A stretch of DNA of 31,056 bases. Source: Planctomycetota bacterium (GTDB lineage Bacteria > Planctomycetota > Planctomycetia > Pirellulales > Lacipirellulaceae). The translations under genes and the position numbers were made by a program. The notes beneath the pieces are model-generated. The model was not told the DNA's origin and searched no databases. It saw only the letters and a program-made list of their open reading frames with translations. Positions 7,382 through 31,056 of the stretch are shown here, piece by piece (position 1 is the first letter of the stretch; each line of letters opens with the position of its first letter). Where the stretch lies: contig JBCCXZ010000049.1 of the NCBI GenBank assembly GCA_039190745.1, forward strand, positions 1 to 31,056, read 5' to 3'.

Positions 7382-7861
7382 AGATATTCATTAGTCGCCG
7401 AAGTTGGACCATCCGCACTCAGATTGCGTCGCCCGGAAGTGCAGTCGGTGTCCAAGACCGCTGAACTTGTGCAGTCAACTCGTCCGCGAAGGTGCTGTGC
7501 CGTTGACGCATCCGTCGCGGTTGGGCAGCCTTTGCCACCCTGACCGAGCGTGCCTGGATTGGCGATTAGCAGCGGTTGACGCTTGCCCAGCCGGTAGCAA
7601 GCGACTCTAGCCGCTTGCAACACGCGTCGAGACGGTCAGCGGTCGGGAGAGATGCGACGCGGCGGAGTTCGACCGATCAATCACGCGACACGCAACCCAG
7701 CTCAATGCTGCCTTATCGAAGCGAGCATTCTCTTGAGCAGCACCGGAGTCGTTCGACCTACCGTGCGGCTGTATGCGATGTAGAGCAGGACGCTTGTCAA
7801 CAAGTTTCTTTTCACGTCAGCCGAGCAGATTGTTGGCAAGCCGAAGTCGCGAGGATAGCAA

Positions 7862-7887
7862 CGTATCAAAACGTCCTTTATGAAACG
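7862..7887. other. Putative tyrosine-recombinase core site (dif/res-like, 10-6-10)
   Basis: CGTATCAAAA-cgtcct-TTATGAAACG: arms match 8/10 as an inverted repeat around a 6-bp asymmetric spacer, flanked by GCAA...TTGC. It ends 24 bp before the recombinase ATG. Confidence 0.7.
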
Positions 7888-7911
7888 CTTGCGGTGTGGC
7901 ATGGTCGGCGG

Positions 7912-8889: not shown

Positions 8890-8962
8890 ACCGCTTGTCC
8901 TTGTGATAGAATACGCGTCAACGGGCCAGGCGGGCGAGGCACGCACACTTTGGAAGGCGCGG

Positions 8963-13461: not shown

Positions 13462-13483
13462 GGTCTTCACTCCATAGAGGGGG

Positions 13484-14163: not shown

Positions 14164-15498
14164 TCAATCCTCGGGGTCGGGTTCGACCGTTTCGAGCGTC
14201 AACTCGCCGCCGCCGTAGTAGGCGATCCACTTGCCGTCCGGGCTGAGCCGAACGATTTCCGCTTCGACGTTCTGGGGGGCAGCGAACTGTCGCAGCTTGT
14301 CGCCGCTCTCGGCCGACCAAGTGGCGACCTCCCCGCTCGGCGCTGCAACGGCCAACACGCCCTGGGGGCTGATGTCGAAGCTGTTGAGCAGTGCCTTGGG
14401 CGATCGGGCCCGGGTCTGCGGAACCCACCAATCGTCCGGGTCGTCAACCTTCGCCTCGTCGCGGATGGTCGGCTTCCAGCCGAGGTTGATCTGCCGTTCG
14501 ATCTGGTGGGTTTTGCAGCCGACGACGTAGACCGAATCGTGGCTGCCTACCAGTAGGTCCCCGTTTGTCGGGTTGTAGCGCAGCTGGATCCAGGAGTCGT
14601 CGAACGGCGTGGCGGCGAGTCGCTGCCGTGTCGCGACATCGTAGGTCTCGATTAAGTAGCGGGTCTTGCCCTTCTCGCGGCGTTTGCCGAGCGAGGCGAG
14701 TCGCTTGCCATCGGGCGACATAGCGCGTTGGCCTATTTGCTCGGTCTCTTCGAGCGCCAGGATCGAGTTGATGTCGCCCGACGCCGCGTCGAGCAGCACG
14801 ACGTACTCGTCGCTGCCGAAGACGACACACGGCGCCCCCTCACGGTGCGGCCGTTCTGGCAGGAACCGTGCCTTGCCGCTGCTGAGGTCGCCCCGTCGAC
14901 GCACGACCTCAAACACTTTGGGATTGCGTTTGCCACGCGGGATGATCGTGAGGTCGATCCGCGTCCCCGCCGGCCCGTTCAGCAGACCGTTTGCGTTCTT
15001 GACCCCGCGGCCAAGCACCGAGTTGGTGCGGCCGAATTCACGCACGGCGACCAACTCGCTTTCCTCGGGCACTCCGGTTTGATCGAGTGGTCCTCCGGCC
15101 ACGAAGTTGCTCAAGATCAGCTTGCCAGCGACCTCGTTCAGCTCAAGGCCGAGGTAGCCGGGGTCGAAACGCCAACCCACCCTCGCGATTGCCCCTGTCT
15201 GGAGATTCAGCGCTTGGGTGCTGCGAGTCGAGACGAGAATCGCCATCCCGCTATCGCGGCTGATCCCGAGAGCGAAGGCGGCGGTCGGCTTCTCGTAGAG
15301 CACGCGGCCACCGCCAACGTCCAGCACCATCGTCCCCTTGCCGCTGGTGAAGAGGAGCTTATGGCTATCGGGCGTGAACTCCATCGCCTTGGCGGTGTAA
15401 GCACGTCCCGAGCGGTTGAGAACCCGGAAGGTGTAGAAGTCGGCGCTGGCGTCACACGCCATTGCGACCCAGCACGCGAGGGCGAGTCGAAGAATCAT
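14164..15498 (-). CDS. Exported WD40-like beta-propeller protein with inserted PDZ-like domain
   Basis: Signal peptide MILRLALACWVAMACDASA after a GGAG RBS. Blade motifs FTPDSHKLL, MSPDGKRLAS, ISPQGVLAVA, LSPDGKWIA. PDZ-like insert GYLGLEL...NFVAGGPLDQTG...LNGPAGTRIDLTI. Confidence 0.8.
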   Translation of the reverse strand: MILRLALACWVAMACDASADFYTFRVLNRSGRAYTAKAMEFTPDSHKLLFTSGKGTMVLDVGGGRVLYEKPTAAFALGISRDSGMAILVSTRSTQALNLQTGAIARVGWRFDPGYLGLELNEVAGKLILSNFVAGGPLDQTGVPEESELVAVREFGRTNSVLGRGVKNANGLLNGPAGTRIDLTIIPRGKRNPKVFEVVRRRGDLSSGKARFLPERPHREGAPCVVFGSDEYVVLLDAASGDINSILALEETEQIGQRAMSPDGKRLASLGKRREKGKTRYLIETYDVATRQRLAATPFDDSWIQLRYNPTNGDLLVGSHDSVYVVGCKTHQIERQINLGWKPTIRDEAKVDDPDDWWVPQTRARSPKALLNSFDISPQGVLAVAAPSGEVATWSAESGDKLRQFAAPQNVEAEIVRLSPDGKWIAYYGGGELTLETVEPDPED

Positions 15499-15863
15499 GG
15501 CAAGGCTCCAGGTGTTACACGCTCGCAAGCCACGATTCTAAGCAGACCAAAGGCACGTGTCGAAATCAGGGTCCGCGAAGGCGCTGACTGCCATACTTCT
15601 CGCTTTCGGCGCCAAGCGTTCTAAGACTGGTCTCGCAATGGCTTCCGGTCGTTTAGCCGTCTTCCTCGGGTCCAAAGCCCTCACGCGGCTCGGTATTGCC
15701 TGAGATGCCTGCGGTTAGTTGCAGGCTTAGGTCTCACCCGATTTACGAGCGGTCCTGCCTCCCGGGTTGGCGGGGCGTATGGCTGACACGATCGTCTCAC
15801 CATGGTCGGCGCCGACTGCCTTCTCCCGAGTCTGCAAAAAGTGAGTCTCGGCGAGATGCGTCC

Positions 15864-15994
15864 CGGCTTCCTTCCCTTCGCTCGTTTGGCCCTCGCCTTG
15901 CCCTGGGCCGAGCGAACGGAGGGGAGGAAGTCGATTGGACGATGGCGTCGCCGCCGCTGCCGCCTCGGCTTACTTTTGCAGAGCTTGGAGGCCC
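15864..15994 (+). repeat. Structured non-coding repeat, copy 1 (long hairpin plus conserved downstream block)
   Basis: Stem GGCTTCCTTCCCTTCGCTCGTTTGGCCC / GGGCCGAGCGAACGGAGGGGAGGAAGTC, then block CCGCCTCGGCTTACTTTTGCAGAGCTTGGAGGCCC. Homologous to 27822-27960. Confidence 0.88.
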
Positions 15995-16286
15995 TCTTCG
16001 CCAAGCCCGTATCCAGTTCTTCGCCATGCCGACATCAGCCCTCCAGCGTTCCCAGTGCCATAGGCGTGTCACTGTCAGGGCGCGTGTCTTGGACGACCTA
16101 CACGTTCGGCCACGTGTTAACAGACAATGAAGACCCTGTAGTCTGCTACCTAAGTCTTACGAATCCGCCGGCGCTGATTATCGTCCTGACCTGGAGGTGA
16201 TAGACTGCGGTTTCCCGACCAGCGGCTGCCTAAGCCGCCGTACCAGTGGTTTGCGTTCGAGATGAAGAGGAAGCCGAGCGGTCGCT

Positions 16287-19200
16287 ATGCCCGAAGACGC
16301 GCCGATTTCGAACAACAGCGATAGCAGCGCGAAGCCATTGGTTCGGGTTATTGCAGAGGAGTGCTTCAACTACGCGGCGTGGCAGAACGCCGTGCCCCTC
16401 TTGCGAGAGGTCATTGTTGAGAACCCCACCGACGATGAATTGTCATCGCTGACGGTCGAGCTGACCCCCTCTCCGTCATTCGCCCGCGGCAAGAGCTGGA
16501 AAGTCGACCGAGTTGGTGCAGGCCAATCGGTCACGCTGCGGGATATCGACTTGGACATCGATGCGGAGTACCTCGACCGCCTCGACGAGGCGGTTCGTGG
16601 CCGTCTCGGCTTTCGGCTTGTGCGGCAAGACGAAACGCTGGCGGAGAGGAAGCACGAGCTGCGTGTGCTGGCCCGCGACGAGTGGGGCGGCATGGGCTCG
16701 ATGGGCGAGCTGCTCCCGGCGTTCGTGACGCCCAACGACCCGGCGCTCGCCCCGCTGCTGAAGTCGGCATCGGAGTCGCTTGAGCGCCACGGGCACCCGG
16801 CTGGCCTCGACGGCTACCAGTCGGGCGACCCCAACCGCTCGTACATGCTCGCGGCCGCGCTCTGGTCGGCGGTCGCCTCCCGGTCGCTGACCTACGCCAA
16901 TCCGCCGAGCAGCTTCGAACAGGTCGGCCAAAAAACACGACGTATCCAAGCGGTGCTCGCGGACGGCTTGGCGACCTGCCTCGATTCGACGCTGCTCTTC
17001 GCTTCTGGGTTGGAGGCGGTTGGGCTTAACCCAGTGCTCGTGATGACCGAGGGGCACTGTTTCGCCGGCGTTTGGCTGGTGGAGAAGACGCTCAAGAAGC
17101 TCAACGAAGCCGACCCAAGCGAGCTTCGGAAAGCGGTCGCAGCGAAAGAGCTCATCGTCTTTGAGACGACGCTGGTGACGCACCGGCCAGCGGCCGGGTT
17201 TCCTGAAGCGATGCAGGCGGCCGAGGCGGCGCTAGGAGAATCGCGCGAACACGAGTTCGTCGGGGCGCTCGACGTGGCCCGCGCACGGATGTCGCAGGTG
17301 CGGCCGCTCGCGTCGCACGGCGAGCGGGCAGAGGGGGAGTCGACCGAGGTCGAGACCGGTCACACCGCGCTGCCGGCGATGCCGAACTACGAGCGACCGA
17401 CGGTTGAGGAACCGGAGCCGGCCCCAACAACCCCGGCGGGACGCATCGATCGTTGGCAACGCAAGCTGCTCGATCTGTCGCTGCGGAATCGGCTGCTGAA
17501 CTTCCGGCCGACCAAGCAGACGGTTCCGGTCGTTTGCCCCGACGTGTCGCGTCTTGAGGACTTGCTCGCCGACGGGACGAAGATGCGACTGGTGTCGCTG
17601 CGCGACGAGAACCAGGTCGGGGAACGCGACAAGGAGCTGCACCAGCAGCGGACGCAGAAGGACTTCGATCTGGAGTTCGCCCGGGAGGCGCTCGCGCGGA
17701 ACGAGGTCGCTTGCCCGGTCGAGGCGCGTGACCTGGAGCTTCGCCTGACGGCTTTGTACCGCAAGGTGAAAAACGACCTGGCCGAGGGAGGTTCCAACAC
17801 CCTTTATTTGGCGGTCGGGTTTCTGCGGTGGAAGCAGCAAGCGACCGACGAGCGGACCTACCGTGCGCCACTGCTGTTAGTGCCCGTGAAGCTGACCCGC
17901 CGCAGCGCATCCTCTCCCTACTACCTGGCGCATCACGAAGACGATGTCCGGTTCAACGCTACCCTGCTGCAGCTGTTGAAGAAGGACTTCGACTGCGACC
18001 TGACCGCGATGGAGTCGGACCTGCCGACCGACGACAGCGGGGTGGATGTCCCGAAGGTGCTCGATCGCATGCGCCGGGCGGTCCGTGACATCCCCGGTTT
18101 TGAGGTGGTGGAGGACGCGGCGGTCGCCTCGTTCTCATTCGCGAAGTACCTGATGTGGAAGGACCTGGTCGAGCGGGTCGGTCAGCTGGAGCGCAACCGG
18201 GTCGTCCGGCACCTAGTGAACGAGCCCGACAAAGCGTTCGAAGCGGGCGGCGACGGCCCGATGCCCCGGCCGCACGAGATGGACACCCGCTACGAGCCAT
18301 CGGAGATCGTCCACCCGCTGCCGGCCGACTCTTCGCAACTGACAGCGGTGATGGCGGCCTCTGAGGGGCACGACATGGTCATCGTCGGGCCGCCCGGGAC
18401 GGGCAAGAGCCAGACGATCGCGAACATCATCGCGCAGTGCCTGGCGGTCGGGAAAACGGTGCTCTTCGTCGCCGAAAAGACGGCCGCCCTCGACGTGGTG
18501 CACCGGCGGTTGAAGGAGCACGGGCTGGGCGACTGCTGCGTCGAGCTGCACTCCAGCAAAGCCGAGCGACGCCGGCTGCTCGATCAGCTCGAAGCCTCTT
18601 GGAAGCGGCGCCAGCGACCCAACAATCAAGAGTGGATTGAGGTCAGCGAGCGGCTCAAGGTGCGCCGTGACGAACTGAACGCCTACGTCGCGGCGGTGCA
18701 CACCGAGCACCCCAACGGGTGGACCGTCTACCGGGCGATGGGCGTCAGTGTGCGTGGGCGCGACACCGAGACGTTTACGCTCGACTGGCCGCGGGCGACA
18801 CGGCATGACCGCGAGGCTTTCGCCGAACTACGACGGTGCGTCGATGGGCTTGCGGGAGCGAGCCGTGCTCTGCCCGACGGCGTGGACCTCGGCCGGCTGG
18901 AGGGGGCCCAGTGGTCGATGGCGTGGGAGACGGAGCTACTAGGGGTTTGTCGGCGGCTGAAGGAGGCCGGCGCCGGCCTCGGCGAGGCGGTCCAGAAGCT
19001 CTCGGGTGAGCTCGGCCTGTCGCTCGCAGGCGACATCTCCTCGTCTCAGCTATCGACGCTCTACCGATTCGCCCACGAGCTGACGCGTCCGTCCCTGCCC
19101 GATGCCGAGCTGGTCCTCCATGAGCAGCTTGACTCGCTGAAGGAGCGACTAGGCGAGCGGGGCGATCTGCTCGCCCGACGTGACGAAGCGAATCGGGAGC

Positions 19201-22200
19201 TGGAGACCGCGCTGAGCGCGTTTGCCGCCGCCCTTGGCGAGCCGGCCGCGGAGGGCGTGACCGAGGCGAGGAAGAAGGCGTACTATCGCCTCGCCAATGA
19301 GCTGGTCCGCCCGGATTCCCCTCCGGCGGCCCTTGTGTTCCATGACGAGTTCTCCGAGCTAGGCGGTCGACTCGCGACACGCGGCGACCTGCTAGTCCGA
19401 CGTCAGGAAGCGTGGGAGGGCGTCGAGGCTCGGGGTTTCAAGTCATCGCTCGTCAAGCGTTTGAAACTCGAAGAGGTGGAGGCGGCGTGGGAGAAGGCTT
19501 GTGGGGCGTTCTGGCCCCTCTCGGTCTTCGCGAAGGGAGGTGTCAAGAAACGGCTCAAGTCTTACCTCGCCGCCGGCTCAGCGGCCGACCCAGAAGTCGA
19601 TCTTCCGCTGCTGCGTGACCACAACGACGCAGTCGCGGCGCTCGATGAGAACCTCGCTGCGCTGCGACTCCCGGCCGAGCTGCAGTCCGCCGTCGATGAG
19701 AACCCCGGGGCGATCGAGGCGGAGCTTCAAGCGGCCGAGCGGATGCGGGAGGTGTTGACGGCTGCCGGACTCAGTCCGTCGGCCGTTGGCCACGCCTGCG
19801 GTGGCGACCTGCAGCCGCTCGCAGCGGCTGCGCGTGGCCTCTATCCCCCCGGTCGTGAAGTGGAGCAGCTCCGCGCAGCGCTCCGCGAGAACCTCGCCTC
19901 GCTCGGAGTCGGCCCCGAGCTCCAGTCTCAGCTCGAAGAAGACGGGGGCGCCCTGGAATCGCAGCTCACGGCCGCCGAGCGGCTGCACGCCGGGGTCGTA
20001 TCGCTTGGTTTACCCGACGAGTCCGTCAGTCGACTGCTGTCTGGTCACAGTGAGCAGCAACGCGGTGTCGCCGCCGGTTACTGCCACTCCGCCAAGGCGT
20101 TCCAGGCCGCGTGGCTCGACTACACGAAGCTCGCTGGGACGACCCCAGTCGCCGCTGAATCGACTGAGGTGTCGTACGAAGCACAGCAGCAGGCCGATCG
20201 GGTGTTGTCGGGGCGCAAGCAACTTAAGACGTGGACAGGTCTGGTGGGGGCACGCAAGGTCGCCGCGGCGCTCGGGCTGGAGTCGATGGCCGCCGCACTC
20301 GCTTCCGGGGAAGTCTTCCCAGAAGACGCGGTCGGTCGCTTCGAGCTAGCGTACGCTCGGTGGTGGCTACCGATTGTGGTCGATGGGTGTGACACGCTGC
20401 GGGCGTTCCAGCGTCACCAGCACGAAGAGGCGGTCGCCGACTTTCGGGAGCTCGACGAGCTTGCTCGCCAGGCGGCGGCTCCCCGCGCGAAGCAGGCGAT
20501 CTATCACGACTTGCCTCCCAGCGATCAGGTGCCGCGCAAGAGTGAGCTGGGGCTGCTTCGCCACCAGATGGGCCTCAAGCGGCCGAGCAAGTCGATCCGG
20601 GAGGTCGTGTCGGGGATGCCGGAGTCGTTCGGCAAGCTCGCCCCCTGTCTGCTGATGTCGCCGTTATCGATCGCCCAGTACCTGCCGGCGGATCAGGCGC
20701 AATTCGACGTCGTGGTCTTCGACGAGGCGTCGCAGATCGCGACGTGGGACGCCATCGGCGCGATTGCCCGCGGTAAGCAGACGATTATCGTGGGCGACCC
20801 GAAGCAGCTGCCCCCCACCAACTTCTTCGGCAAGGCGGACGCGGACGAGGAGAACGAAGAACTCGACGACTACGAGAAGGACCTCGAGAGCATCCTCGAC
20901 GAGGCGCAAGCGTCGGGGCTTCCAACGCTACAGCTCAACTGGCACTACCGCAGCCGGCACGAGTCGCTCATCACGTTCTCGAACTGGAACTACTACGGCA
21001 ACGAGTTGGTGACGTTCCCGGCCGCCGAGTCGGAGGACCGTGGCGTCTCGCTGACGCACGTCGAAGGGGGCGTCTACGACCGGGGCAAGAGCCGCACCAA
21101 CCGGGCCGAAGCCGAAGCGATCGCGGCCGACCTCATCCAAAGAATGAAGCGTTGTCTTACGCGGCCGGAGGACGAACGCCTGACCTACGGCGTGGTGACT
21201 TTCAACAGCCAGCAGCAGTCTCTGATTCAAGACCTGCTCGACGAGGCGCTCCGTGAGACGCCCGCATTGGAATGGTTCTTCGCCGACGACCGCATCGAAC
21301 CAACAGCGGTCAAGAACCTAGAAAACGTCCAGGGGGACGAGCGGGACGTGATGTATTTCTCGATCACGTTCGGCAAAGACACGGCCGGCAAGTTCCCGGT
21401 CGATTTTGGGGCGATCAACCGGGACGGCGGAGAGCGCCGGCTCAACGTGGCGGTGACCCGGGCACGCCAAACCCTCCTGGTGTACGCCTCGTTCCTGCCC
21501 GACGAGCTTCGCGCGGAGCGTTCGCAGGCCCGCGGCGTGCACGACCTAAAGGCCTTCTTGGAGTACGCCCACCGGGGGCCGGTTGCGATCGCCGCGCGGA
21601 CCGAGGGTTCGGTCGGCGGCTACGATTCGCCGTTCGAAGAAGCGGTAGCCGAGGCGCTGTCTAGTCGCGGTTGGCGCCTGGAGCCGCAGGTAGGCGTGTC
21701 GGGTTTTCGGATCGACCTCGGTGTCTTCCACCCCGACCTTCCCGGCGCTTACCTCGCTGGCGTGGAGTGCGACGGCGCGACCTACCACCGCTCAGCCGCG
21801 GCGCGCGACCGCGACAAGACGCGGCAGCTCGTCCTGGAGAATCTGGGATGGACGATCCTGAGAGTCTGGTCGCCCGACTGGTGGTACGACTCCGAGTCGG
21901 CGGTCGAGGCGGTCCACGAGAGCCTCAATAAGTTGCTCACCGCGTCGCGCGCGAACCGATCGGCGGCGACCGAGCCGCCTGAAGCGAGCGATGGTGCTCC
22001 GTCCGAGTCGTCGGTTTCGGTGGCGTCTCCACCCCCAGAGTCAGGCCTTGAGTGGTCCGATTCCGACTCAATCGAGCCACCGCTGGACTTCGCTCAGGCG
22101 ACCAGAGCAGACGACCTCGTCGAGTCGCCAGGGAAGCAGCTTGTCGCTCGCAGTGCGACGGGGGATGAGAAGCGGCAGATTTACGAGACTGCGCAGCTGG

Positions 22201-22691
22201 GCGACGCTTCTGGTCATCAGGGTCGGTTCTACGACGAAGACTACTCGCCCGAGCTTCGGCGCATGGCGCTTGCCGTGGTTGCGGCCGAGGGTCCGGTGCG
22301 AGACGACGTAGTCGCCAAACGCATCGCCCGCGCGCACGGATTCGCCCGGACGGGAGCACGCATCCGAGACCGCGTGCTCGCTCTGATCCCTGAGTTACCC
22401 GCTACCAAGGAAGGCGTGGGACGATTCTTGTGGTCGAGCGATGCGCCGCACGCAACGGTCCCGTTCCGGTATGCGGCGGATGAGGATGAGCGACGGAGCC
22501 TGGATGAGATCCCTACGCCAGAGCTGTTCGGTTTGCTGATCAATCGTCCTGATATAGCAGTAAGCGAGGACCCCGCACTCGCGCTCGCACGAGAGGTGGG
22601 GTTGTCTCGGCTGGCCACGGCGGCTCGCGAGCGACTTGAGTCAGTTATCGAACTCGCCAACAACGTCGACGCGGGGCGGCCGGGGCGTTGA
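16287..22691 (+). CDS. Hhe-like anti-phage protein: DUF4011 + SF1 (UPF1/DNA2-like) helicase + Vsr/DUF559-like nuclease + DUF3320
   Basis: 2134 aa. RWQRKLLDLSLRNRLLN (DUF4011), Walker A GPPGTGKS, LLMSPLSIAQYL, FDEASQ, LNWHYRSRHESLI, VQGDERD, RRLNVAVTRAR. Nuclease SPFEEAV..GFRIDLGV..VECDGATYH. C-terminal VVAAEGPVRDDVVAKRIARAHGFARTGARI (DUF3320). Confidence 0.9.
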   Translation: MPEDAPISNNSDSSAKPLVRVIAEECFNYAAWQNAVPLLREVIVENPTDDELSSLTVELTPSPSFARGKSWKVDRVGAGQSVTLRDIDLDIDAEYLDRLDEAVRGRLGFRLVRQDETLAERKHELRVLARDEWGGMGSMGELLPAFVTPNDPALAPLLKSASESLERHGHPAGLDGYQSGDPNRSYMLAAALWSAVASRSLTYANPPSSFEQVGQKTRRIQAVLADGLATCLDSTLLFASGLEAVGLNPVLVMTEGHCFAGVWLVEKTLKKLNEADPSELRKAVAAKELIVFETTLVTHRPAAGFPEAMQAAEAALGESREHEFVGALDVARARMSQVRPLASHGERAEGESTEVETGHTALPAMPNYERPTVEEPEPAPTTPAGRIDRWQRKLLDLSLRNRLLNFRPTKQTVPVVCPDVSRLEDLLADGTKMRLVSLRDENQVGERDKELHQQRTQKDFDLEFAREALARNEVACPVEARDLELRLTALYRKVKNDLAEGGSNTLYLAVGFLRWKQQATDERTYRAPLLLVPVKLTRRSASSPYYLAHHEDDVRFNATLLQLLKKDFDCDLTAMESDLPTDDSGVDVPKVLDRMRRAVRDIPGFEVVEDAAVASFSFAKYLMWKDLVERVGQLERNRVVRHLVNEPDKAFEAGGDGPMPRPHEMDTRYEPSEIVHPLPADSSQLTAVMAASEGHDMVIVGPPGTGKSQTIANIIAQCLAVGKTVLFVAEKTAALDVVHRRLKEHGLGDCCVELHSSKAERRRLLDQLEASWKRRQRPNNQEWIEVSERLKVRRDELNAYVAAVHTEHPNGWTVYRAMGVSVRGRDTETFTLDWPRATRHDREAFAELRRCVDGLAGASRALPDGVDLGRLEGAQWSMAWETELLGVCRRLKEAGAGLGEAVQKLSGELGLSLAGDISSSQLSTLYRFAHELTRPSLPDAELVLHEQLDSLKERLGERGDLLARRDEANRELETALSAFAAALGEPAAEGVTEARKKAYYRLANELVRPDSPPAALVFHDEFSELGGRLATRGDLLVRRQEAWEGVEARGFKSSLVKRLKLEEVEAAWEKACGAFWPLSVFAKGGVKKRLKSYLAAGSAADPEVDLPLLRDHNDAVAALDENLAALRLPAELQSAVDENPGAIEAELQAAERMREVLTAAGLSPSAVGHACGGDLQPLAAAARGLYPPGREVEQLRAALRENLASLGVGPELQSQLEEDGGALESQLTAAERLHAGVVSLGLPDESVSRLLSGHSEQQRGVAAGYCHSAKAFQAAWLDYTKLAGTTPVAAESTEVSYEAQQQADRVLSGRKQLKTWTGLVGARKVAAALGLESMAAALASGEVFPEDAVGRFELAYARWWLPIVVDGCDTLRAFQRHQHEEAVADFRELDELARQAAAPRAKQAIYHDLPPSDQVPRKSELGLLRHQMGLKRPSKSIREVVSGMPESFGKLAPCLLMSPLSIAQYLPADQAQFDVVVFDEASQIATWDAIGAIARGKQTIIVGDPKQLPPTNFFGKADADEENEELDDYEKDLESILDEAQASGLPTLQLNWHYRSRHESLITFSNWNYYGNELVTFPAAESEDRGVSLTHVEGGVYDRGKSRTNRAEAEAIAADLIQRMKRCLTRPEDERLTYGVVTFNSQQQSLIQDLLDEALRETPALEWFFADDRIEPTAVKNLENVQGDERDVMYFSITFGKDTAGKFPVDFGAINRDGGERRLNVAVTRARQTLLVYASFLPDELRAERSQARGVHDLKAFLEYAHRGPVAIAARTEGSVGGYDSPFEEAVAEALSSRGWRLEPQVGVSGFRIDLGVFHPDLPGAYLAGVECDGATYHRSAAARDRDKTRQLVLENLGWTILRVWSPDWWYDSESAVEAVHESLNKLLTASRANRSAATEPPEASDGAPSESSVSVASPPPESGLEWSDSDSIEPPLDFAQATRADDLVESPGKQLVARSATGDEKRQIYETAQLGDASGHQGRFYDEDYSPELRRMALAVVAAEGPVRDDVVAKRIARAHGFARTGARIRDRVLALIPELPATKEGVGRFLWSSDAPHATVPFRYAADEDERRSLDEIPTPELFGLLINRPDIAVSEDPALALAREVGLSRLATAARERLESVIELANNVDAGRPGR

Positions 22692-22719
22692 AACAGCCAG
22701 AATCCGAGAGCTTCGAACT

Positions 22720-23964
22720 ATGTTCTCCTTCCTTCACGCCGCCGACATCCATCTGGACAGCCCGCTGCGTGGTTTGGACCGGTACGAGGGCGCGCCGGTC
22801 GAAGAGATCCGCCAGGCGACCCGCCGGGCGCTTGAGAATCTGGTTGACCTCGCCATCCGGGAAGCGGTCGACTTCGTGGTGCTCGCTGGTGACTTGTACG
22901 ACGGCGACTGGCCCGACTTTGACACCGGCCTGTTCTTCGTCGGTCAGATGCGCCGCCTCCGTGAAGAGGGCATCCCAGTCTATGGGGTTCTCGGCAACCA
23001 CGACGCGGCCAGCAAGATCACCCGACGGCTGCCGCTGCCCGAGAACGTCAGTTTTTTCCCCACCGCAGCAGCCGAGACACGCCGGGTCGAGGGGCTGGAC
23101 GTCGCCATCCACGGTCAGAGCTTCGCGAGTCAATGCACGACGGACGACCTTGCGAAGGACTACCCCGCGGCGGTCTCCGGGTGTTTCAACCTCGGCGTGC
23201 TGCACACGAGCATGACCGGACGCGAAGGGCACGACAGCTACGCGCCCTGCAGCGAGAGCTGCTTGCGGGATAGCGGCTACGATTATTGGGCGTTGGGCCA
23301 TATCCACCTACGCGAGGTGTTCTCGGACAGCCGCCCGACGATCGCTTACCCCGGCAACCTCCAGGGCCGCCACATCCGCGAAACCGGAGCGAAGGGATGC
23401 CTGTTGGTGCGGGTCGATGACGGCAATGACGTGACCACCGAGTTCCACCCGCTTGATGTGCTGCGGTGGGAAGTCGCTGAAGTGGCGTTGAACGACGCCC
23501 AGAGCGAAACCGAGGTGCTCGATCTGGTGGACCAGACCCTACTTCGACTGCTGGAGGAGGCGGACGGGCGCCTCGTTGCGGCGAGGGTCTTCCTGAACGG
23601 CGTCACGCCGCTTGCGGAAGAGTTGACCGCCAACGCGAAGCAGTGGACAGCGAGCGTCCAAGCGCGAGCGGTCGACATCGGCGGGGGTGGGCTCTGGGTG
23701 GAGAAAGTGATAAGCGATGTGGAGCCGCTTAGTGAGAGCGTCACGGCCGCCGCCGACGACACACCGGTGGCGGAGGTGGTCGCCATTGCCGAGGAGCTGC
23801 TCAGCGAGCCGTCGGCCGGCGAAAGCCTCGGGCTCGACTTCGAGGACATCCAGCGCAAGCTTCCCCCGGAGCTGAGGGAGGCGGTGCGCATCAGCGACGC
23901 CGATTGGTGGCGGGGCGTTCTGCACGACGCGAAGGCCAAACTACTCACGGAGCTGAGGGGGTAA
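22720..23964 (+). CDS. Mre11/SbcD-like (YhaO family) metallophosphoesterase DNA exonuclease
   Basis: Motifs HAADIHLD, AGDLYD, GNHD, LHTS, YWALGHIH, YPGNLQGRH. ATG at 22720, 28 bp after the helicase stop. Confidence 0.93.
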   Translation: MFSFLHAADIHLDSPLRGLDRYEGAPVEEIRQATRRALENLVDLAIREAVDFVVLAGDLYDGDWPDFDTGLFFVGQMRRLREEGIPVYGVLGNHDAASKITRRLPLPENVSFFPTAAAETRRVEGLDVAIHGQSFASQCTTDDLAKDYPAAVSGCFNLGVLHTSMTGREGHDSYAPCSESCLRDSGYDYWALGHIHLREVFSDSRPTIAYPGNLQGRHIRETGAKGCLLVRVDDGNDVTTEFHPLDVLRWEVAEVALNDAQSETEVLDLVDQTLLRLLEEADGRLVAARVFLNGVTPLAEELTANAKQWTASVQARAVDIGGGGLWVEKVISDVEPLSESVTAAADDTPVAEVVAIAEELLSEPSAGESLGLDFEDIQRKLPPELREAVRISDADWWRGVLHDAKAKLLTELRG

Positions 23965-23967
23965 TGC

Positions 23968-26900
23968 GTGCGACTCGAAGAACTTCGCTTGATCGCTTAC
24001 GGCACGTTCAGCGACTGCACGCTTCGGCTGCAGCCGGGTCTGAACGTGCTGTATGGGCCGAACGAAGCGGGGAAGAGTTCCGCCCTGCGGGCTGTGCACG
24101 CGCTGCTGTTCGGCGTTGAAGAACGGACGACCGACAACTTTGTCCACAGCTACCCGCAGCTGCGCGTCGGCGGAGTGCTCGTCGATTCACAGGGGCGTCG
24201 GTTGGAGTGCGTCCGGCGCAAGGGGCGTCGTTCGACGCTACGCGATTGCGACGACGACGAACCGCTCGACGAAGGCGAGCTGCGGGCGATGCTCGGAGGC
24301 GTGAATGAGGAGTTTTTTGCCTCCGTCTTCGGCATCGATCACCAGCGGCTCCGCGAGGGTGGCGAAGAGGTCATTCGTGGCGAGGGCCGAGTGGGAGAGC
24401 TGCTGTTCTCGGCGGGCGGCGTCGCCCATCTGAGAGAGAAGCAAGAGGCGTTGCAGAACGCCGCGGCGGAGCTGTTCAAGCCAACCGGCCGCAACCCCCG
24501 CATTAACGTGGCGTTGTCCGAAGCGCGTTCGCTAGGAGCGGCAGTCCGCGAACTGCAGCAGTCTCCCGAGCAGTGGGCGCGTCACGACGCCGAGTATCGA
24601 AGACTGGAAGCGAAGGAGGGGCAGCTGAGGCGACAGCTCGTCGAGACCGAATCGAAAAAGAAGCGCCTGGAGCGTATTCGTGATGCGAAGGAGTTCGTAG
24701 GAGCGTGGAAGGACAAGCGAGCGCAGTTGTCCGAGCTTGACGCCGTCGTCGTCCTGGCTGAAGACGCCGACCAGCGTTTTCGGGAGGAGAACGAGAAGCG
24801 ATCACTCGCGGCAGCTGCGAAGGCTGCCGCCGAGAAGCGTCTGGGGGAGCTGCAGTCGGACCTTGAGAAGCTCGACGTACCAGCCGAGCTGCTGAGTGAA
24901 GCGACGCGCGTCGACGAGCTGTATCGAAGGCTTGGCAGCCACGAGAAGGCAGCTGAAGACAAGGGCGTGCTGGCGGGTCAGCAGCGCACCGCTCGCAGCG
25001 CCGCGAAGCGGACGGTCGAGAAACTGGGCTGGGAGCTGTCGGTCGAGGACGCTGGGCAGCGTCGGGTTGCAGACGAGAAGAAGGCACGGGTCAGAGCACT
25101 GGCGAGCCGGCACGCCGCAGTGACTCAGGCCAGGAGCCAGCAACAGCAGGCGCTCGGTCGCGCCGAGGCGAAGCTCGTCGAGCTGAAGCAGAGTCTATCA
25201 GCCTCGGAGAAGCCCGATGACCCTGCCTCGTTGCGAGCTGCCATTGCGTCGTCGGCGCCGCCGCTTGAGTTGGAAGCCGGACTTGATGCCCGGCGAGAGG
25301 AAGAAGAACGACTGAAACGTGATGCGGACGATTCGCTTTCGCGGCTGCTGCACTTTAGCGGGACACTCGAAGAAGCTTGCCGGTTGGCGGTCCCCGGTGA
25401 AGAGACGGTCGATGAGTTCGATCAATCGCGGCGCGACCTCGCCAGCGAGGCCGAGACGCTGACCGTACAAGTAGCAGCGAATCGATCCGAACGGGAAGAC
25501 GTCGCCCAGAAGCTGCAGGCTTTGGAGCTGCAGGAATCGGTCCCCACCGAGGAGGAGCTGGCGGTGGCGCGAGCGACCCGCGACAGCGGCGTGCGGCTCG
25601 CCGTAAACGTACTGGCGGGTGAAGATCCGGACTCTAACGCGGTCGAAAACTTCGTTCAAAACGTTACCGAGGGAGAAGACCTCGCGACAGCGCTCGAGCC
25701 CAGCGTACGGCACGCGGACGAGGTTTCAGATCGTCTGCGTCGCGAGGCGAGCCGCGTCGCGGACAAGTCGCAGCTGGTCGCACGCCTCCAGGCACTCGAC
25801 GCAAAGGCGGACCAGCTGAAGACGAAACAGACGGGTTTGGAGCAGCGGCAGAACGCTTGGGACGGCGACTGGAAGAGTCGCTGGGAGGCGTCGGGCATCA
25901 CCCCGATGTCACCGTCGGAGATGCGTGGGTGGTTGCGGCAGCTCGCGGAGTTGGTTGGGTTGTCGACTGGGCTCGCGACGGCTTCCGAACAACTTGAGGG
26001 CGACGCGAGTCGGGTTGAAGCGGCGGTAGTCGATCTCCGCACCGCGCTTGAGCGACAGGGCGTAGACGTGCCTGGCGACGCAACGCTCGCACGGCTGCTC
26101 GAAGCGGCTGAAACGCGACTAGAAGAGGTGACTGAAGAACGCCAGCAGCACGCGGATCTCGAGTCGGATGTCGCCCGGGTCACCGATGAGGTCGAGCAGG
26201 CGAAGCGCGATCTGGAAGCGGCGGAGGGCGCATTGCGCGAGTGGAGTGAAGACTGGGCCAACACAGTCGCACCGCTGTCGCTGGATGCCGACGCCCTACC
26301 CGAGCAGGCCGAGGCAGTGCTGACCAACCTCGACGAGCTGTTCCGCAACCTCGACGCCGCCGCAGGCTTCCGCGCACGGATTTGGGGCATCGACAAGACG
26401 GCGGCCGAGTTTGCCGAAGCGTCGACGGAGATGGCCAGGAAAGTCGCTCCCGACTTAGCGGAGCTTGGAGCGGAAGAGTTGGTGACGACGCTCAAGCAAC
26501 GACTCGACTCCGCCAAACAGATGCGTCAGCAGTACGATTCGTTGACTGAGCAACTGCAAGACGCTCGCGAAGCTGTTGATGAATCCGAGCAAGACCTCTC
26601 TAGTAGCACGGCGGTTCTGGAAGCGATGGTCACGGAGGCCGCCTGCGATGGCGTTGACAGCTTGCGGTCCGCGATCGAGGCGTCGCGCAGAAGAGTAACG
26701 CTTGTGAACGACGTCGACGAGCGTGAAAGGGAACTCACGTTGTTGTGCGCAGGCAAGTCACTCGCGGACTTCGTCGTGGACGTTGAGCAAGAGGACGCCG
26801 ATCGGCTCCCAATTCAGATCGAAGAACTCGGCAAAGAGGTTGGAGGCCTCCGTGGCGAACTTGAAGAGACGATCGCCGCACGGCAGCGGGAGGCGTCGGA

Positions 26901-27483
26901 GCTAGAAAAGTACAATGGCTCAGCGGAGGCAGCCGAGAAGGCGGAGGAGCGTCTTTCGGTTCTTGCCAGGGTTGAAGACGACATCCGAGAGTACATCGTT
27001 GCCACCACCGCGGGCCGCCTGCTGCAACGCGCGGTTGAGCGTTACCAGGAGAAGTCTCAGGGGCCCGTGTTGACTGCCGCATCGGAGTACTTCCGGCTGC
27101 TGACCTGCGGCTCTCTTGAGGCTTTGCGGGCCGATTACGACGAGTCGGGGGGCGAGGTGCTAGTCGGCGTACGGTCGGACGGCGGCGTCCTGATGGTCGA
27201 TGGCATGAGCGAAGGAACACGCGACCAGCTTTACCTTGCTCTACGCCTCGGCACGCTCGACCACTGGTTCGAAGGCCACGAGCCGATCCCTTTTATCGTG
27301 GATGACGTCCTGCTGACTTTTGACGACGCTCGCTCGGAGGCGGCTTTACGTGTGCTCGCGAAAGTAGCTGACAGCCACCAAGTCCTGTTCTTCACACACC
27401 ACGAGCACTTGGTAGAGATCGCACAGTCGGTATGCGGTGACTCAAGCGATCAGGGCATCAACGTGCTTGCGGATTGGAGCTAG
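23968..27483 (+). CDS. YhaN-family (AAA_27) Rad50/SMC-like coiled-coil ATPase
   Basis: Walker A YGPNEAGKSS, long coiled coils, signature MSEGTRDQLYLALR, Walker B/D-loop FIVDDVLLTFDD, H-loop FFTHH. GTG start 3 bp after the nuclease stop. Confidence 0.93.
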   Translation: MRLEELRLIAYGTFSDCTLRLQPGLNVLYGPNEAGKSSALRAVHALLFGVEERTTDNFVHSYPQLRVGGVLVDSQGRRLECVRRKGRRSTLRDCDDDEPLDEGELRAMLGGVNEEFFASVFGIDHQRLREGGEEVIRGEGRVGELLFSAGGVAHLREKQEALQNAAAELFKPTGRNPRINVALSEARSLGAAVRELQQSPEQWARHDAEYRRLEAKEGQLRRQLVETESKKKRLERIRDAKEFVGAWKDKRAQLSELDAVVVLAEDADQRFREENEKRSLAAAAKAAAEKRLGELQSDLEKLDVPAELLSEATRVDELYRRLGSHEKAAEDKGVLAGQQRTARSAAKRTVEKLGWELSVEDAGQRRVADEKKARVRALASRHAAVTQARSQQQQALGRAEAKLVELKQSLSASEKPDDPASLRAAIASSAPPLELEAGLDARREEEERLKRDADDSLSRLLHFSGTLEEACRLAVPGEETVDEFDQSRRDLASEAETLTVQVAANRSEREDVAQKLQALELQESVPTEEELAVARATRDSGVRLAVNVLAGEDPDSNAVENFVQNVTEGEDLATALEPSVRHADEVSDRLRREASRVADKSQLVARLQALDAKADQLKTKQTGLEQRQNAWDGDWKSRWEASGITPMSPSEMRGWLRQLAELVGLSTGLATASEQLEGDASRVEAAVVDLRTALERQGVDVPGDATLARLLEAAETRLEEVTEERQQHADLESDVARVTDEVEQAKRDLEAAEGALREWSEDWANTVAPLSLDADALPEQAEAVLTNLDELFRNLDAAAGFRARIWGIDKTAAEFAEASTEMARKVAPDLAELGAEELVTTLKQRLDSAKQMRQQYDSLTEQLQDAREAVDESEQDLSSSTAVLEAMVTEAACDGVDSLRSAIEASRRRVTLVNDVDERERELTLLCAGKSLADFVVDVEQEDADRLPIQIEELGKEVGGLRGELEETIAARQREASELEKYNGSAEAAEKAEERLSVLARVEDDIREYIVATTAGRLLQRAVERYQEKSQGPVLTAASEYFRLLTCGSLEALRADYDESGGEVLVGVRSDGGVLMVDGMSEGTRDQLYLALRLGTLDHWFEGHEPIPFIVDDVLLTFDDARSEAALRVLAKVADSHQVLFFTHHEHLVEIAQSVCGDSSDQGINVLADWS

Positions 27484-27821
27484 CAAATCCCGCCGTTTAT
27501 CACCCTGCACGAGTAGGCCGATGCCGACGAGATCGTGACTGCTGCGGGGGCGGATCTGCAACATGGGGTACATCGGGTCGGAAGGCCTTGGATTATCGCT
27601 CGACAACATCGATTGTCTGGTAGGCGCGAATAACTCAGCAGAATCCACCGTACAGAGAGCGTGTGCGGCTCACCCGCGGGCTCCTCAGCCCGACCGATAC
27701 GCCTATTAGGCCCGCTCACGCAGGTCCGATATATATGCCGCCATGCTCAACCTCCTTTTCGCGGAGACCGAGTCCTACTCGCCACCGCCTCCGGCTGCAG
27801 CCACCCACTGCGTGGTCGCCG

Positions 27822-27960
27822 CGGCTTCCTTCCCGTCGCCCGTTTGGCCCTCGCACCGCCATGGGGGGCCAAGCGGGCGGAGGGAAGGAAGCCCGTGCAC
27901 AACCAGTGACAATCAGCTGTCACCCCCGCCTCGGCTTTCTTTAGCAGAGCCTGGAGGCCC
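27822..27960 (+). repeat. Structured non-coding repeat, copy 2
   Basis: Stem GGCTTCCTTCCCGTCGCCCGTTTGGCCC / GGGCCAAGCGGGCGGAGGGAAGGAAGCC, then block CCGCCTCGGCTTTCTTTAGCAGAGCCTGGAGGCCC. Same orientation as copy 1. Confidence 0.88.
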
Positions 27961-28149
27961 GCTTTGCCGCGCAGCTTCTGGGCGTGCCGCAGATGCGCCT
28001 CGCTGTACGTAGAGCGTCTTCGTCAGCGATGTTCCGGCAAGTGTACACTCGTGCGCATGGTCTAAGTTCACTATCATCGAAGGGATTGGAGCGCCAAATC
28101 GGAGGGCGCGTGCGTGAGGTTGACTGCCCTAACGACTCAAGGACGTGCT

Positions 28150-31056
28150 ATGGCCAAGCAAGAGATTGAGGCGCCCGACACACTAGTGCTTCCGCCGGCA
28201 GTACGCACCGTCGCGAAGTGTCACGTCGGCACGGCGCTCTGCGAGTTGCATTCGGGAGGCCCGGTCAAGGTCGCAAGCAGTAAGTCCATCTCGGTCTCGA
28301 AACGCCGAGAAGAGCTGCTGCTGACCTTGGACGACGGGCGCTCGGTGCTTTGGACCAAGCGCTCTAGGTGTCCTCTGCCAGAAGCGGCAGACGCGGTCCT
28401 CTCCGCAGAGCAAGGCAGCGGCCCTCGCTGGCTCGCACACAGGCTTCTTCCCGAAACGGACAGTGAACCCAATGGCGATCTACGGAACGCGATCGCGCTG
28501 GGGTGGAGTGGCCAGCTCCGATTCCAAGCTGAAGAGCTAAACTCGGACGGGTCGGTATTAGAAGCTGGACTCCGGCCGCCGCAGCTTGGGGCTCTCCACG
28601 CGATCGGCGCGCACTGGAGTCTTCACACCGAGCCGGCAACGGTTGTGATGCCGACCGGCACAGGGAAGACCGAGACAATGCTGGCGGCAACGATAGCCTA
28701 CGGCCGCGGGCCGGTGCTCGTGGTCGTCCCCTCGAAAGCTCTCAGGCGTCAGACCGCGAAGAAGTTCCGAACGCTAGGGTTGCTGCGTCAGCTGGGGGTT
28801 GTTCCCGACAGCATCGGCAATCCCGTCGTAGGTGAGCTCAAGCACCGTCCACGGTCGGAGGATGACCTAGCTATCTTCGACTGCTGCAACGTTGTCGTGT
28901 CGACAATGAGTTCGATCAGCCAAGGCACCGCGGCTGCGCTGGGCGACAAGATCGCCGAGCGAGTCGGCGTGCTCATCGTCGACGAGGCTCATCACGTCGC
29001 CGCTAGGACCTGGACGTCGTTCCGCGAGCACTTCGACTCGAAGCCGGTGCTCCAGTTCACGGCGACGCCGTTTCGAACCGACGGCAAGTTGGTTGATGGG
29101 AAAGTCATCTACAGCTACCCGCTACGCCGCGCGCAGGAAGACGGGTACTTCATGCCCATCACCTTCCATCCGGTCTTTGAGTTCGATCAGCGCGTCGCTG
29201 ACGAGGCGATTGCCGAAGAGGCAATCGGTGCTCTGAAAGAAGACCTGACGACCGGTTACGACCATGTCCTTCTCGCCCGCTGCCGGTCGATTGCTCGCGC
29301 CGAGGAGGTTCTGGCGGTCTACCAACGCTTGGCTGAGGAGTACGAGCCTGCCCTCGTCCACTCGGGGCTCACCCGTCCACAAGAGACGATCGAGAGCCTA
29401 CAGAAGGGCGAGTGCAGAATCGTTGTGTGCGTCGACATGCTGGGGGAAGGGTTTGATCTTCCCCAGCTAAAGATTGCGGCGGTCCATGACCCGCACAAGA
29501 GTCTGGCAGTGCTCATGCAATTCGCCGGAAGGTTCACTCGCACAGCCGGCGCCGATCTGGGAGAAGCGACAGTTGTCGGCAACATCATGAACGATGATGT
29601 CAGCGACGCCCTGGAACGCCTTTACAGCGAGGACGCCGATTGGAACGAGCTGCTCAGTGAGTTCAGCTCGCAGGCCGTGCGACAGCACGCAGAGCTGCTC
29701 GAGTTTCTGAGGCAGTCAACGCGGCTTGATGGGGACGCCGACAAGGGGGGCGACAGTATCTCACACACGCTCTTGCGGCCGAAGTTCAGCGCCGGGGTCT
29801 ATCGCTGCAAGAGCTTCGAGCCGAAGCGATTCCATAGCGCGCTTGGTCGTAGCACGGAAGTCCACGCCGTCTGGCTGCATGAGGACAGCCACACCCTGTA
29901 CTTCGTGACCAAGAGCGAGCCCACCGTGCGTTGGAGCCGGTCAAAACAGCTCAGAGACCGGCAGTGGGACCTGTTCGTCGTTCACTACGACCCCGGCCTT
30001 GGGTTGCTTTATGTCTACTCAAGCGACAAGTCGTCCATGCACCAGTCCTTAGCTCAGGCCATCGGGGGAGACGACGCGACTCTGATTTCCGGGGACAAGG
30101 TATTTCGGGTGCTCAGCGGTGTGAAGCGACTCGTGTTCCAACAGATCGGGGTCAAGAAGTTCGGGCGTCGGAACCTGAGGTACGCGAAGTACACCGGCGC
30201 CGACGTCAAGCAGGCGATGTCAGTTTCGCAAACCTCCGGGTCAGTGAAGTCGGATCTGACAGGCACCGGGTTCGAGCGGGGCGGCCCGGTCACCATCGGC
30301 TGTTCCTACAAGGGCCGAGTTTGGAGTCGAGAGCAGGGAACGGTGCAGGGATTCGTCTCTTGGTGCGGGAACATCGGCAACAAGCTCATTGACGACCGCA
30401 TCGACACGTCGAGCATCATCGACAACGTCATGATCCCGGACGAAGTGACCGCCATCCCCGAGGGGACTGTCTTGAGCCTGGAGTGGCCGGTGGAATTGCT
30501 CCGTCAGTCGGACGAGCGAGTCACGCTCGCCTCGCGAGGCATGGTGCAGCCACTCTCGCTCTTCGAGCTTGGGCATGTGGCGATCTCTGAGGATCGCCAG
30601 GAACTGCGTTTCACTGTGTCGAGCGAGCGCCGCGCGGCCGATTACGCACTTCGCCTCGAAGGCGAAGGCGGGTACGCCGTCACACTTGAGTCAGGAGACG
30701 ACCTGCAGGTCGCGGCAGGACGGATCAAGTCGTCGCTCGCGTCCTACTTCAGTGATTACCCGCCACTCGTGACGTTCTGTGATCTATCGGAGCTGGACGG
30801 CAACCTCTACGTCTCGCCGGAAAAGGCCCCAGATCTGGTGCTGCCGGCATCGCGGTTCGAGTCATGGGACTGGTCTGGGGTCGACATTCGGAAGGAGTCG
30901 ATCTGGAGCGGCGGTCAGCATCGGGCTTCGTCTATCCAGGGGCACGCAGCGGATCACTACACTTCAGGGGGCGGGTTCGATTTGGTGTTCGACGACGACT
31001 CGTCGGGCGAAGCGGCGGACCTAATCTGCATGAAGGAAGAGGAGACGCACATCCGC
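28150..31056 (+). CDS. SF2 DEAH helicase (ResIII-like) with probable C-terminal nuclease domain, truncated at window edge
   Basis: Not in the ORF track because it has no stop in the window. ATG at 28150 after AAGGA (MAKQEIEAP), in-frame stop upstream at 28063. Motifs GLRPPQLGA, MPTGTGKT, IVDEAHH, QFTATPFR, VDMLGEGFDLP, QFAGRFTR. In-frame acidic motif VFDDDSSGEAADLI at the window end. Confidence 0.9.
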   Translation, partial: MAKQEIEAPDTLVLPPAVRTVAKCHVGTALCELHSGGPVKVASSKSISVSKRREELLLTLDDGRSVLWTKRSRCPLPEAADAVLSAEQGSGPRWLAHRLLPETDSEPNGDLRNAIALGWSGQLRFQAEELNSDGSVLEAGLRPPQLGALHAIGAHWSLHTEPATVVMPTGTGKTETMLAATIAYGRGPVLVVVPSKALRRQTAKKFRTLGLLRQLGVVPDSIGNPVVGELKHRPRSEDDLAIFDCCNVVVSTMSSISQGTAAALGDKIAERVGVLIVDEAHHVAARTWTSFREHFDSKPVLQFTATPFRTDGKLVDGKVIYSYPLRRAQEDGYFMPITFHPVFEFDQRVADEAIAEEAIGALKEDLTTGYDHVLLARCRSIARAEEVLAVYQRLAEEYEPALVHSGLTRPQETIESLQKGECRIVVCVDMLGEGFDLPQLKIAAVHDPHKSLAVLMQFAGRFTRTAGADLGEATVVGNIMNDDVSDALERLYSEDADWNELLSEFSSQAVRQHAELLEFLRQSTRLDGDADKGGDSISHTLLRPKFSAGVYRCKSFEPKRFHSALGRSTEVHAVWLHEDSHTLYFVTKSEPTVRWSRSKQLRDRQWDLFVVHYDPGLGLLYVYSSDKSSMHQSLAQAIGGDDATLISGDKVFRVLSGVKRLVFQQIGVKKFGRRNLRYAKYTGADVKQAMSVSQTSGSVKSDLTGTGFERGGPVTIGCSYKGRVWSREQGTVQGFVSWCGNIGNKLIDDRIDTSSIIDNVMIPDEVTAIPEGTVLSLEWPVELLRQSDERVTLASRGMVQPLSLFELGHVAISEDRQELRFTVSSERRAADYALRLEGEGGYAVTLESGDDLQVAAGRIKSSLASYFSDYPPLVTFCDLSELDGNLYVSPEKAPDLVLPASRFESWDWSGVDIRKESIWSGGQHRASSIQGHAADHYTSGGGFDLVFDDDSSGEAADLICMKEEETHIR

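What the first reader, a model, noticed from the sequence alone, without database searches (positions are those of the whole stretch)
15864..27960. Two copies of an unannotated structured non-coding element bracket the Hhe-YhaO-YhaN block and precede each defence-type helicase
Seen: 15864-15994 and 27822-27960 are diverged direct repeats. Each has a 28-bp stem with only one true mismatch, a variable loop, a variable spacer of about 26-32 nt, and a conserved 35-nt block (CCGCCTCGGCTTwCTTTwGCAGAGCyTGGAGGCCC). The differences mostly preserve pairing: one compensatory change (T-A in copy 1, C-G in copy 2) and several Watson-Crick to G-T swaps. The wobbles (5 in copy 1, 2 in copy 2) pair only on the + strand, so selection appears to act on a single-stranded + strand fold (RNA or ssDNA). 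Copy 1 ends about 290 nt before the Hhe-like start and copy 2 about 190 nt before the SF2 helicase start. Inference: this could be a new cis-regulatory RNA or sRNA tied to defence genes, or a folded-ssDNA recombination site that delimits exchangeable defence cassettes, analogous to integron attC, possibly served by the nearby tyrosine recombinase.
Basis: partly seen in the sequence, partly recalled or inferred. Interest (0 to 1): 0.85.

Follow-up and report, generated by a model that had tools for sequence, protein, structure and literature searches.

The report
Mobile hairpin hitchhiking in planctomycete transposons
The two repeats are real copies of a small folded DNA element found across one family of planctomycete bacteria, where it turns up as an insertion inside unrelated transposons and mobile islands, so it is likely a gene-less jumping passenger rather than a switch for defence genes or an integron-like joint.

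Summary
Observation confirmed: two 75%-identical copies, the only two in this genome, each a 28-bp stem, variable spacer and 35-nt box. Covariance models found the element in 47 of 119 other genomes of the family (159 matches) and barely outside it. Across 46 stems 30 of 31 pairs change on both sides; G·T outnumbers A·C 122 to 26, so one strand folds. It is not defence-specific: it sits in ISL3 leaders, ISL3-type MITEs, the non-coding ends of two IS110-type elements, islands and beside housekeeping genes. In both IS110 clades it is a clean 130-140-bp insertion absent from close relatives (1 of 9; 1 of 25), so it moves as a unit, without terminal repeats or evident target duplication. No attC boxes, no integron integrase, no Rfam, BoxC or promoter match. 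Best reading: an undescribed, non-autonomous, strand-specific palindrome, probably moved by a HUH (Y1) transposase in trans; no cognate transposase was found (38 loci). Main rival: an ssDNA signal of mobilisable islands (17 of 17 copies nearest DUF932 share one orientation). This scan earlier noted an ISL3-type MITE in another planctomycete.

The parts
15864..16002 (+). Element copy 1 (subtype A): stem 15865-15932, variable spacer, 3' box 15960-15994
   Evidence: models R2/R3
15966..15976 (+). a': C-to-T direct repeat of the stem's 5' foot; could pair with the stem's 3' end instead (inferred)
27822..27968 (+). Element copy 2 (subtype A): stem 27823-27893, spacer, 3' box 27926-27960; other strains' copies match 27817/27818-27960 with unrelated flanks
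27932..27942 (+). a' repeat of copy 2
27711..27777 (+). 67-nt piece with the first 12 codons of an ORF that goes on with other sequence in contigs of three runs; ends 40 nt before copy 2, so possibly cut at the element's left edge (inferred)
16287..22691 (+). ProA (Prometheus) anti-phage helicase-nuclease
   Evidence: NF058533 above cut-off
22636..27483 (+).
28114..31056 (+). SF2 helicase (ResIII, Helicase_C), cut by the contig end
12081..13470 (-). DUF932 gene (12436-13470) and a small SSB-like gene (label recalled, no Pfam hit): core of the mobilisable island
14164..15528 (-). Beta-propeller gene, divergent from copy 1; same place in G238 and G332
7576..8889 (+). Tyrosine recombinase (conserved part from 8032); not an integron integrase

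Best explanation
The repeats are copies of a 130-170-base gene-less palindromic element of one planctomycete family that occurs as a discrete insertion in other mobile DNA and likely moves as a folded single strand, probably served in trans by a HUH (Y1, IS200/REP-type) transposase. Shown: the family, its covarying stem, the + strand bias, a fixed 3' end at the box, and presence/absence as a unit inside two IS110-type clades and at matching island positions. Inferred: the long hairpin is what the enzyme binds and the 3' box, with its C-to-T repeat of the hairpin foot, sets the cut; insertion into exposed single strands would explain the one orientation next to DUF932; gaps in islands and IS ends are where insertions are tolerated, and host ISs and MITEs then multiply it. 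The window's copies would be two old passengers at gene-block junctions; at 75% identity they could at most seed rare homologous exchange.
For: Insertion of about 130 bp right after the transposase stop in 1 of 9 aligned IS110 non-coding ends, the other 8 collinear (model hit in 1 of 30 loci). Second IS, IS110-like by a recalled N-terminal motif: element in the 5' end of 8 G018 copies, 1 of 25 related loci, nearest relative (71% aa) about 140 nt shorter there. Also in leaders of one ISL3 clade in two subtypes and as a facing pair in ISL3-type MITEs with 8-bp duplications and an empty site. Subtype differs at the same place before ProA (A in G000, G332; B in G238, G016; none found in G433). Same-study strains carry copies bounded at 27817-27960 with other flanks. 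Covariation 89.9% paired against 71.7% shuffled and 37-61% slid. G·T 122, A·C 26. Class-3-like Y1 genes in G238 and G018 are flanked by hairpins of the same size with a GAGCC foot, a type described for Planctomycetes (PMC6006769 section 27).
Against: No cognate mobiliser: none of 38 Y1/IS91 loci from 10 genomes has the element as a flank; the one hit is an ISL3 end carrying it inside an IS200 gene. G000 shows no Y1, IS91, ISL3 or either IS110 transposase (95% complete assembly). The CnGA foot is in 9 of 35 B and 1 of 22 A copies, in neither window copy. Both clean insertions are subtype B; subtype A mobility rests on homology and on presence/absence. Copy number is low and stems are kept intact, which also fits a function for the host element. 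No fresh multi-copy burst of the bare element was seen.
Confidence: 0.55

Rival explanations
1. A single-strand signal of mobilisable islands (sso/ssi priming site or Frpo-like promoter) that folds on the transferred strand; ISs picked it up later.
For: 17 of 17 copies nearest a DUF932 gene fold on that gene's template strand (8, two weak; 5; 4 from coordinates). The islands carry RepA, ParA/B, TrwB, ArdC; fold strand is the TrwB template in 3 of 4 loci. Frpo copies also occur as repeats a few kb apart (PMC9849209 passages).
Against: Only 5 of 30 further DUF932 loci have it within about 9 kb upstream; distance 0.25-6 kb, either side; the loci share descent, so 17 is not 17 events. Second copies in G238 and G332 face the other way. 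No -35/-10 in the stem. Most copies lie in ISs and MITEs without a transfer step.
Confidence: 0.2
2. A structured RNA: terminator, stabiliser, leader or antisense RNA read from the + strand, with a' as an alternative partner of the stem's 3' end.
For: G·U-type bias and covariation; a' differs from a by C-to-T in 27 of 32 differences over 13 subtype A copies; 24 of 43 scorable IR-less copies follow a same-strand gene, some within 20 nt.
Against: 19 of 43 have a divergent gene upstream and 14 of 42 an opposing gene downstream (rough ORF calls); sense to one transposase, antisense to two; no U-tract terminator in the window copies. Strand-biased deamination of an often single-stranded + strand gives the same G·T excess (inference), and model-based finding favours it.
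Confidence: 0.12
3. Left-over left ends of an ISL3 transposon or its MITE.
For: Both subtypes occur between the left inverted repeat and the transposase of one ISL3 clade; 29 of 79 sites have an ISL3-type repeat just downstream (heuristic).
Against: 50 of 79 sites, both window copies included, lack it while stem and box are intact; internal insertions in IS110 ends carry no ISL3 repeat; four leaders of the clade hold other hairpins and one keeps the box without the stem.
Confidence: 0.08
4. An attC-like recombination site that lets the island's tyrosine recombinase swap defence cassettes.
For: Six copies punctuate one G238 island at block junctions, with different cargo after YhaN than here; strand-specific fold.
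Against: No R boxes; recombinase far below the IntI cut-off; 6 of 24 recombinase neighbourhoods; G018 and G446, richest in copies, have no match to it; both orientations in one island; not found at three matching junctions; no contig skips the 12-kb block with matching flanks.
Confidence: 0.05

Closest known systems
REPINs and class-3 TnpA(Y1) 'atypical' hairpins (PMC3116915 abstract; PMC6006769 passages and section 27)
   Same: Gene-less extragenic hairpin, variable copy number, strand-specific fold, no evident target duplication; class-3-like Y1 genes with equally long hairpins occur in the same family.
   Different: One 28-33-bp stem, not two short tagged REPs; separate conserved 3' box with a C-to-T repeat of the foot; CnGA foot mostly missing; no flanked transposase found.
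ISL3-derived MITEs and ISL3 left ends
   Same: The element is carried in both.
   Different: It is cargo: the window copies have no terminal repeat and no 8-bp duplication, and it also sits in IS110-type elements.
Frpo / ssi / sso single-strand signals (PMC9849209, PMC5714925 passages)
   Same: Long hairpin on one strand, repeated, oriented relative to establishment genes.
   Different: No -35/-10 boxes; not at a fixed place; common in non-conjugative ISs.
Integron attC (features recalled)
   Same: Imperfect palindrome with one folding strand between gene blocks.
   Different: No R boxes, no IntI, no one-gene cassette array, both orientations.
BoxC / TM(ECO) triplex repeat (PMC4666352 passages)
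   Same: Pyrimidine-rich arm facing a purine-rich arm; CCCTC(A/G)CCC at the apex.
   Different: Consensus matched in 0 of 79 sites and 0 times in G000.

Membership tests
REP/REPIN (RAYT, class-3 TnpA-Y1) | Extragenic hairpin folding on one strand | tested here: met
REP/REPIN (RAYT, class-3 TnpA-Y1) | Tetranucleotide foot (GTAG, CGTC or CnGA) 5' of the stem | tested here: not met
   CnGA in 9 of 35 B, 1 of 22 A, neither window copy; no GTAG in either window copy; CGTC before copy 1 only (its family-wide tally overlapped the stem and is not counted)
REP/REPIN (RAYT, class-3 TnpA-Y1) | Cognate Y1 gene flanked by the repeat | tested here: inconclusive
   0 of 38 loci from 10 genomes; the other 110 family genomes not examined
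REP/REPIN (RAYT, class-3 TnpA-Y1) | Cleavage of the ssDNA hairpin by the enzyme | not testable with these tools
   bench test
MITE (DDE-type) | Terminal inverted repeats and target duplication | tested here: not met
   Absent at window copies and at the IS110 insertion; met only by the larger 318-bp unit that carries two elements
Integron attC | RYYYAAC / GTTRRRY boxes (recalled) | tested here: not met
Integron attC | IntI integrase nearby | tested here: not met
   TIGR02249 36 bits, cut-off 265
Frpo/ssi/sso | -35 and -10 boxes rebuilt in the stem | tested here: not met
   no sigma-70 match inside either copy, linear scan only
Frpo/ssi/sso | Fixed orientation on the transferred strand | tested here: inconclusive
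   17 of 17 next to DUF932; opposite second copies in G238, G332; no oriT mapped
Frpo/ssi/sso | Priming or transcription from ssDNA | not testable with these tools
   bench test
BoxC/TM(ECO) | Published consensus | tested here: not met
IS110 bridge/seek RNA | Conserved in the IS non-coding region | tested here: not met
   lies outside the conserved part and is missing in relatives
Rfam family | Score at gathering threshold | tested here: not met

The most novel reading that the evidence does not exclude
A new class of single-strand module: a long hairpin with a built-in partner swap (a, a*, a') that is both self-mobile and useful, acting as a portable ssDNA origin or promoter; unrelated planctomycete elements (ISL3, two IS110 types, MobF-type islands) keep capturing it, and its scattered copies make the joints at which defence blocks are reshuffled.
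Probability: 0.2. Interest if true: 0.8.

Novelty: new variant of a known kind. Interest (0 to 1): 0.45.

Why it matters
It gives a well-aligned, covarying repeat family in a phylum whose small mobile DNA is little charted, with exact filled and empty sites and a candidate enzyme class (class-3 TnpA-Y1, untested in the paper seen). That makes an open question, what moves long tag-less palindromes, testable. The a/a' repeat that follows the stem's sequence across subtypes matched nothing in the papers seen. It also warns that hairpins between defence genes need not be cassette joints. It does not reveal a new defence mechanism.

Tried and rejected
Sequence-only searches missed the family: blastn in 61 relatives gave only short chance hits; box pattern with 3 mismatches, 1 of 401 genomes, the own one; GTDB pattern, 15 hits, none with the stem; viral scans 0, 11 and 5 hits, none real, one unanswered; plasmids none; first metagenome scan 0, second 3 real copies. 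Rfam below threshold gave only miRNA/snoRNA hairpins. No RNA holder listed among public runs. A short X3 contig joining copy 1's 5' arm to copy 2's 3' arm is not counted as recombination: one search shows several further variants in that run. My first reading, an ISL3 left end (given), fell with the IS110 insertions. A coding role was dropped because the spacer changes frame between copies. Rows dropped: 7 of 53 stems (L093, L113, L207, L089, L189, L122, L203; broken arms or long loops) were left out of the covariation alignment; L180 was dropped from the a/a' count (mis-anchored). Look-ups of earlier findings by sequence and place were blank. Ten paper searches listed no description of this family; supplements were not opened, and Table S1 of PMC6006769 (class-3 hairpins) may bear on novelty.
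Full report
Observation. The window is a whole contig (C49) of a 3.89-Mb, 95% complete planctomycete assembly. The two repeats are as described: 75% identity, E 2e-18; 28-bp stems with 5 G·T plus one C·A and 2 G·T plus one G·G, one compensatory pair; folds far beyond shuffles on + (z -5.3, -7.4), weaker on - (-1.9, -4.0). blastn, nhmmer and two covariance models find only these two copies in the assembly. No Rfam family reaches threshold; lower hits are eukaryotic hairpins.

Setting. The copies lie in a mobile island: tyrosine recombinase, VWA-PP2C-kinase, a small SSB-like gene (label recalled), DUF932, a beta-propeller, copy 1, ProA (NF058533 above cut-off), a YhaO/YhaN-like pair, copy 2, an SF2 helicase. 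Related islands in G238, G332, G035 and G433 carry RepA, ParA/B, TrwB, ArdC and many defence genes.

The family. A two-sequence model found homologues in 3 of 60 family genomes, a nine-sequence model in 31 of 119, a 34-sequence model in 47 of 119 with 159 matches, a lower bound as 24 candidates per genome were scored. Outside the family: 2 weak hits in 140 order genomes (one is a true subtype A copy) and 1 weak, uninspected hit in 150 phylum genomes. Three metagenome contigs carry subtype A. Anatomy: a pyrimidine-rich 5' arm starting with foot a, a 28-33-bp stem with a GGCC(C)TC(A/G)CCC apex, a spacer of a few to about 80 nt, then a box that starts with a'. Subtypes A (window) and B align in stem and box. 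In 46 of 53 non-redundant stems, 89.9% of cells pair (shuffles 71.7%, slid controls 37-61%) and 30 of 31 pairs change on both sides; relatedness and A/B register shifts inflate this. With strand-neutral arm calling G·T outnumbers A·C 122 to 26, in 42 against 3 stems with 8 ties; the models favour such hits, and strand-biased deamination would give the same sign, but either way the + strand is the single-stranded one. a' follows a across subtypes and differs by C-to-T in 27 of 32 differences in 13 copies, so it could pair with the stem's 3' end through G·T on + only (inferred).

Where it sits. (1) ISL3: between the left inverted repeat and the transposase of one well-supported clade, as B in G018 and G302 and as A in G446 and G013; G434 keeps the box with the stem gone between a and a'; four other leaders hold different hairpins. 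(2) A 318-bp MITE of two facing elements with ISL3-type ends: six G018 copies at 93-99%, 8-bp duplications, one empty site; like units in G207 and G004. (3) An IS110 element in G420: a clean insertion of about 130 bp right after the stop codon, antisense to the gene, in 1 of 9 aligned ends, seven of the others 72-83% identical in protein; 1 of 30 loci hit. (4) A second IS, IS110-like by a recalled motif: element in the 5' end, sense to the gene, in 8 G018 copies, 1 of 25 related loci; the nearest relative is collinear and about 140 nt shorter. (5) Islands: nearest copies to DUF932 fold on its template strand in 17 of 17 cases, but only 5 of 30 newly fetched DUF932 loci have one upstream. (6) Beside dehydrogenases, transporters and other ordinary genes. 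Of 79 sites, 50 lack an ISL3 repeat, both window copies among them (heuristic).

Against the cassette-site idea. Six copies do punctuate the syntenic G238 island, with IetA/IetS-like genes after YhaN where this genome has a helicase. But the copy before ProA is A in two genomes, B in two and not found in one; none was found after YhaN in G332 or G178; islands hold both orientations; there are no attC boxes; the recombinase is no IntI, has the element in 6 of 24 neighbourhoods and has no match in the two most copy-rich genomes. Contigs of four runs of one study show further copies bounded at 27817/27818-27960 with unrelated flanks and no joined form of the 12-kb block.

How it most likely works. 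Shown: it moves as a 130-170-bp unit without terminal repeats or evident duplication, has a sharp 3' end and folds on one strand. Inferred: a HUH transposase acts on it in trans. Such enzymes bind ssDNA hairpins and cut where short guide pairings direct them (PMC6006769, passages); class-3 members, mainly planctomycete, are flanked by atypical hairpins (section 27), and such genes in G238 and G018 have hairpins of the same length with a GAGCC foot but other sequence and no box. Insertion into exposed single strands would give the constant orientation in transferable islands. Against: no cognate gene in 38 loci from 10 genomes, CnGA foot in 10 of 57 copies, and both clean insertions are subtype B. 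I put self-mobility at about 0.75 and the whole account at 0.55; an ssDNA signal 0.2, an RNA 0.12, ISL3 remnant 0.08, attC-like 0.05.

Known systems and novelty. It works like a REPIN (PMC3116915, abstract and outline) but fails the tag test (PMC3733652, passages); it is no DDE MITE by itself, no BoxC (PMC4666352, passages), no Frpo by its boxes (PMC9849209, passages; sso/ssi from PMC5714925, passages) and not the conserved IS110 guide region (PMC11187229, listing only). Ten searches of the open library listed no description; subscription papers and supplements were not seen. Verdict: real, apparently undescribed, a new variant of small non-autonomous palindromic repeats, not a defence regulator. 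Interest 0.45.

Noticed in passing
window 8903-11981: VWA, PP2C and kinase genes in a row, like the TerY-phosphorylation triad of stress islands (name recalled).
   Followed up: no
window 27711-27777: Start of a gene that continues differently in contigs of three runs; here it stops 40 nt before copy 2; no second copy in the genome or loci.
   Followed up: partly
window 15823-15856: Small imperfect hairpin just upstream of copy 1 holding TCTGCAAAAAGT, an inverted near-copy of part of the box; not present before copy 2.
   Followed up: no
L274-L282, 3' of the transposase; L355, L356, L359, 5' of it: Strongly conserved non-coding regions of two IS110-type clades: candidate seek/bridge RNAs.
   Followed up: no
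L219, L220, L237, L239, upstream of the ISL3 transposase: Another multi-hairpin leader shared by four ISL3 elements; the clade also has a hairpin over the start codon. L219 and L237 gave no Rfam hit.
   Followed up: partly
L318:1247-1883, L314:1168-1918, L327:1228-1895: Class-3-like Y1 genes flanked by long hairpins; a similar-looking lone hairpin at L263:5782-5868.
   Followed up: partly
L195, about 5050-5150: What looks like the 3' end of a group II intron (recalled pattern) right after a subtype B copy.
   Followed up: no
L066:5517 onward (G238): 1264-aa reverse transcriptase between two element copies in the defence island.
   Followed up: no
L182:9800-10430 (G027): Tandem duplication of a 313-bp unit that holds the element, next to an IS110 gene and a split integrase.
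   Followed up: no
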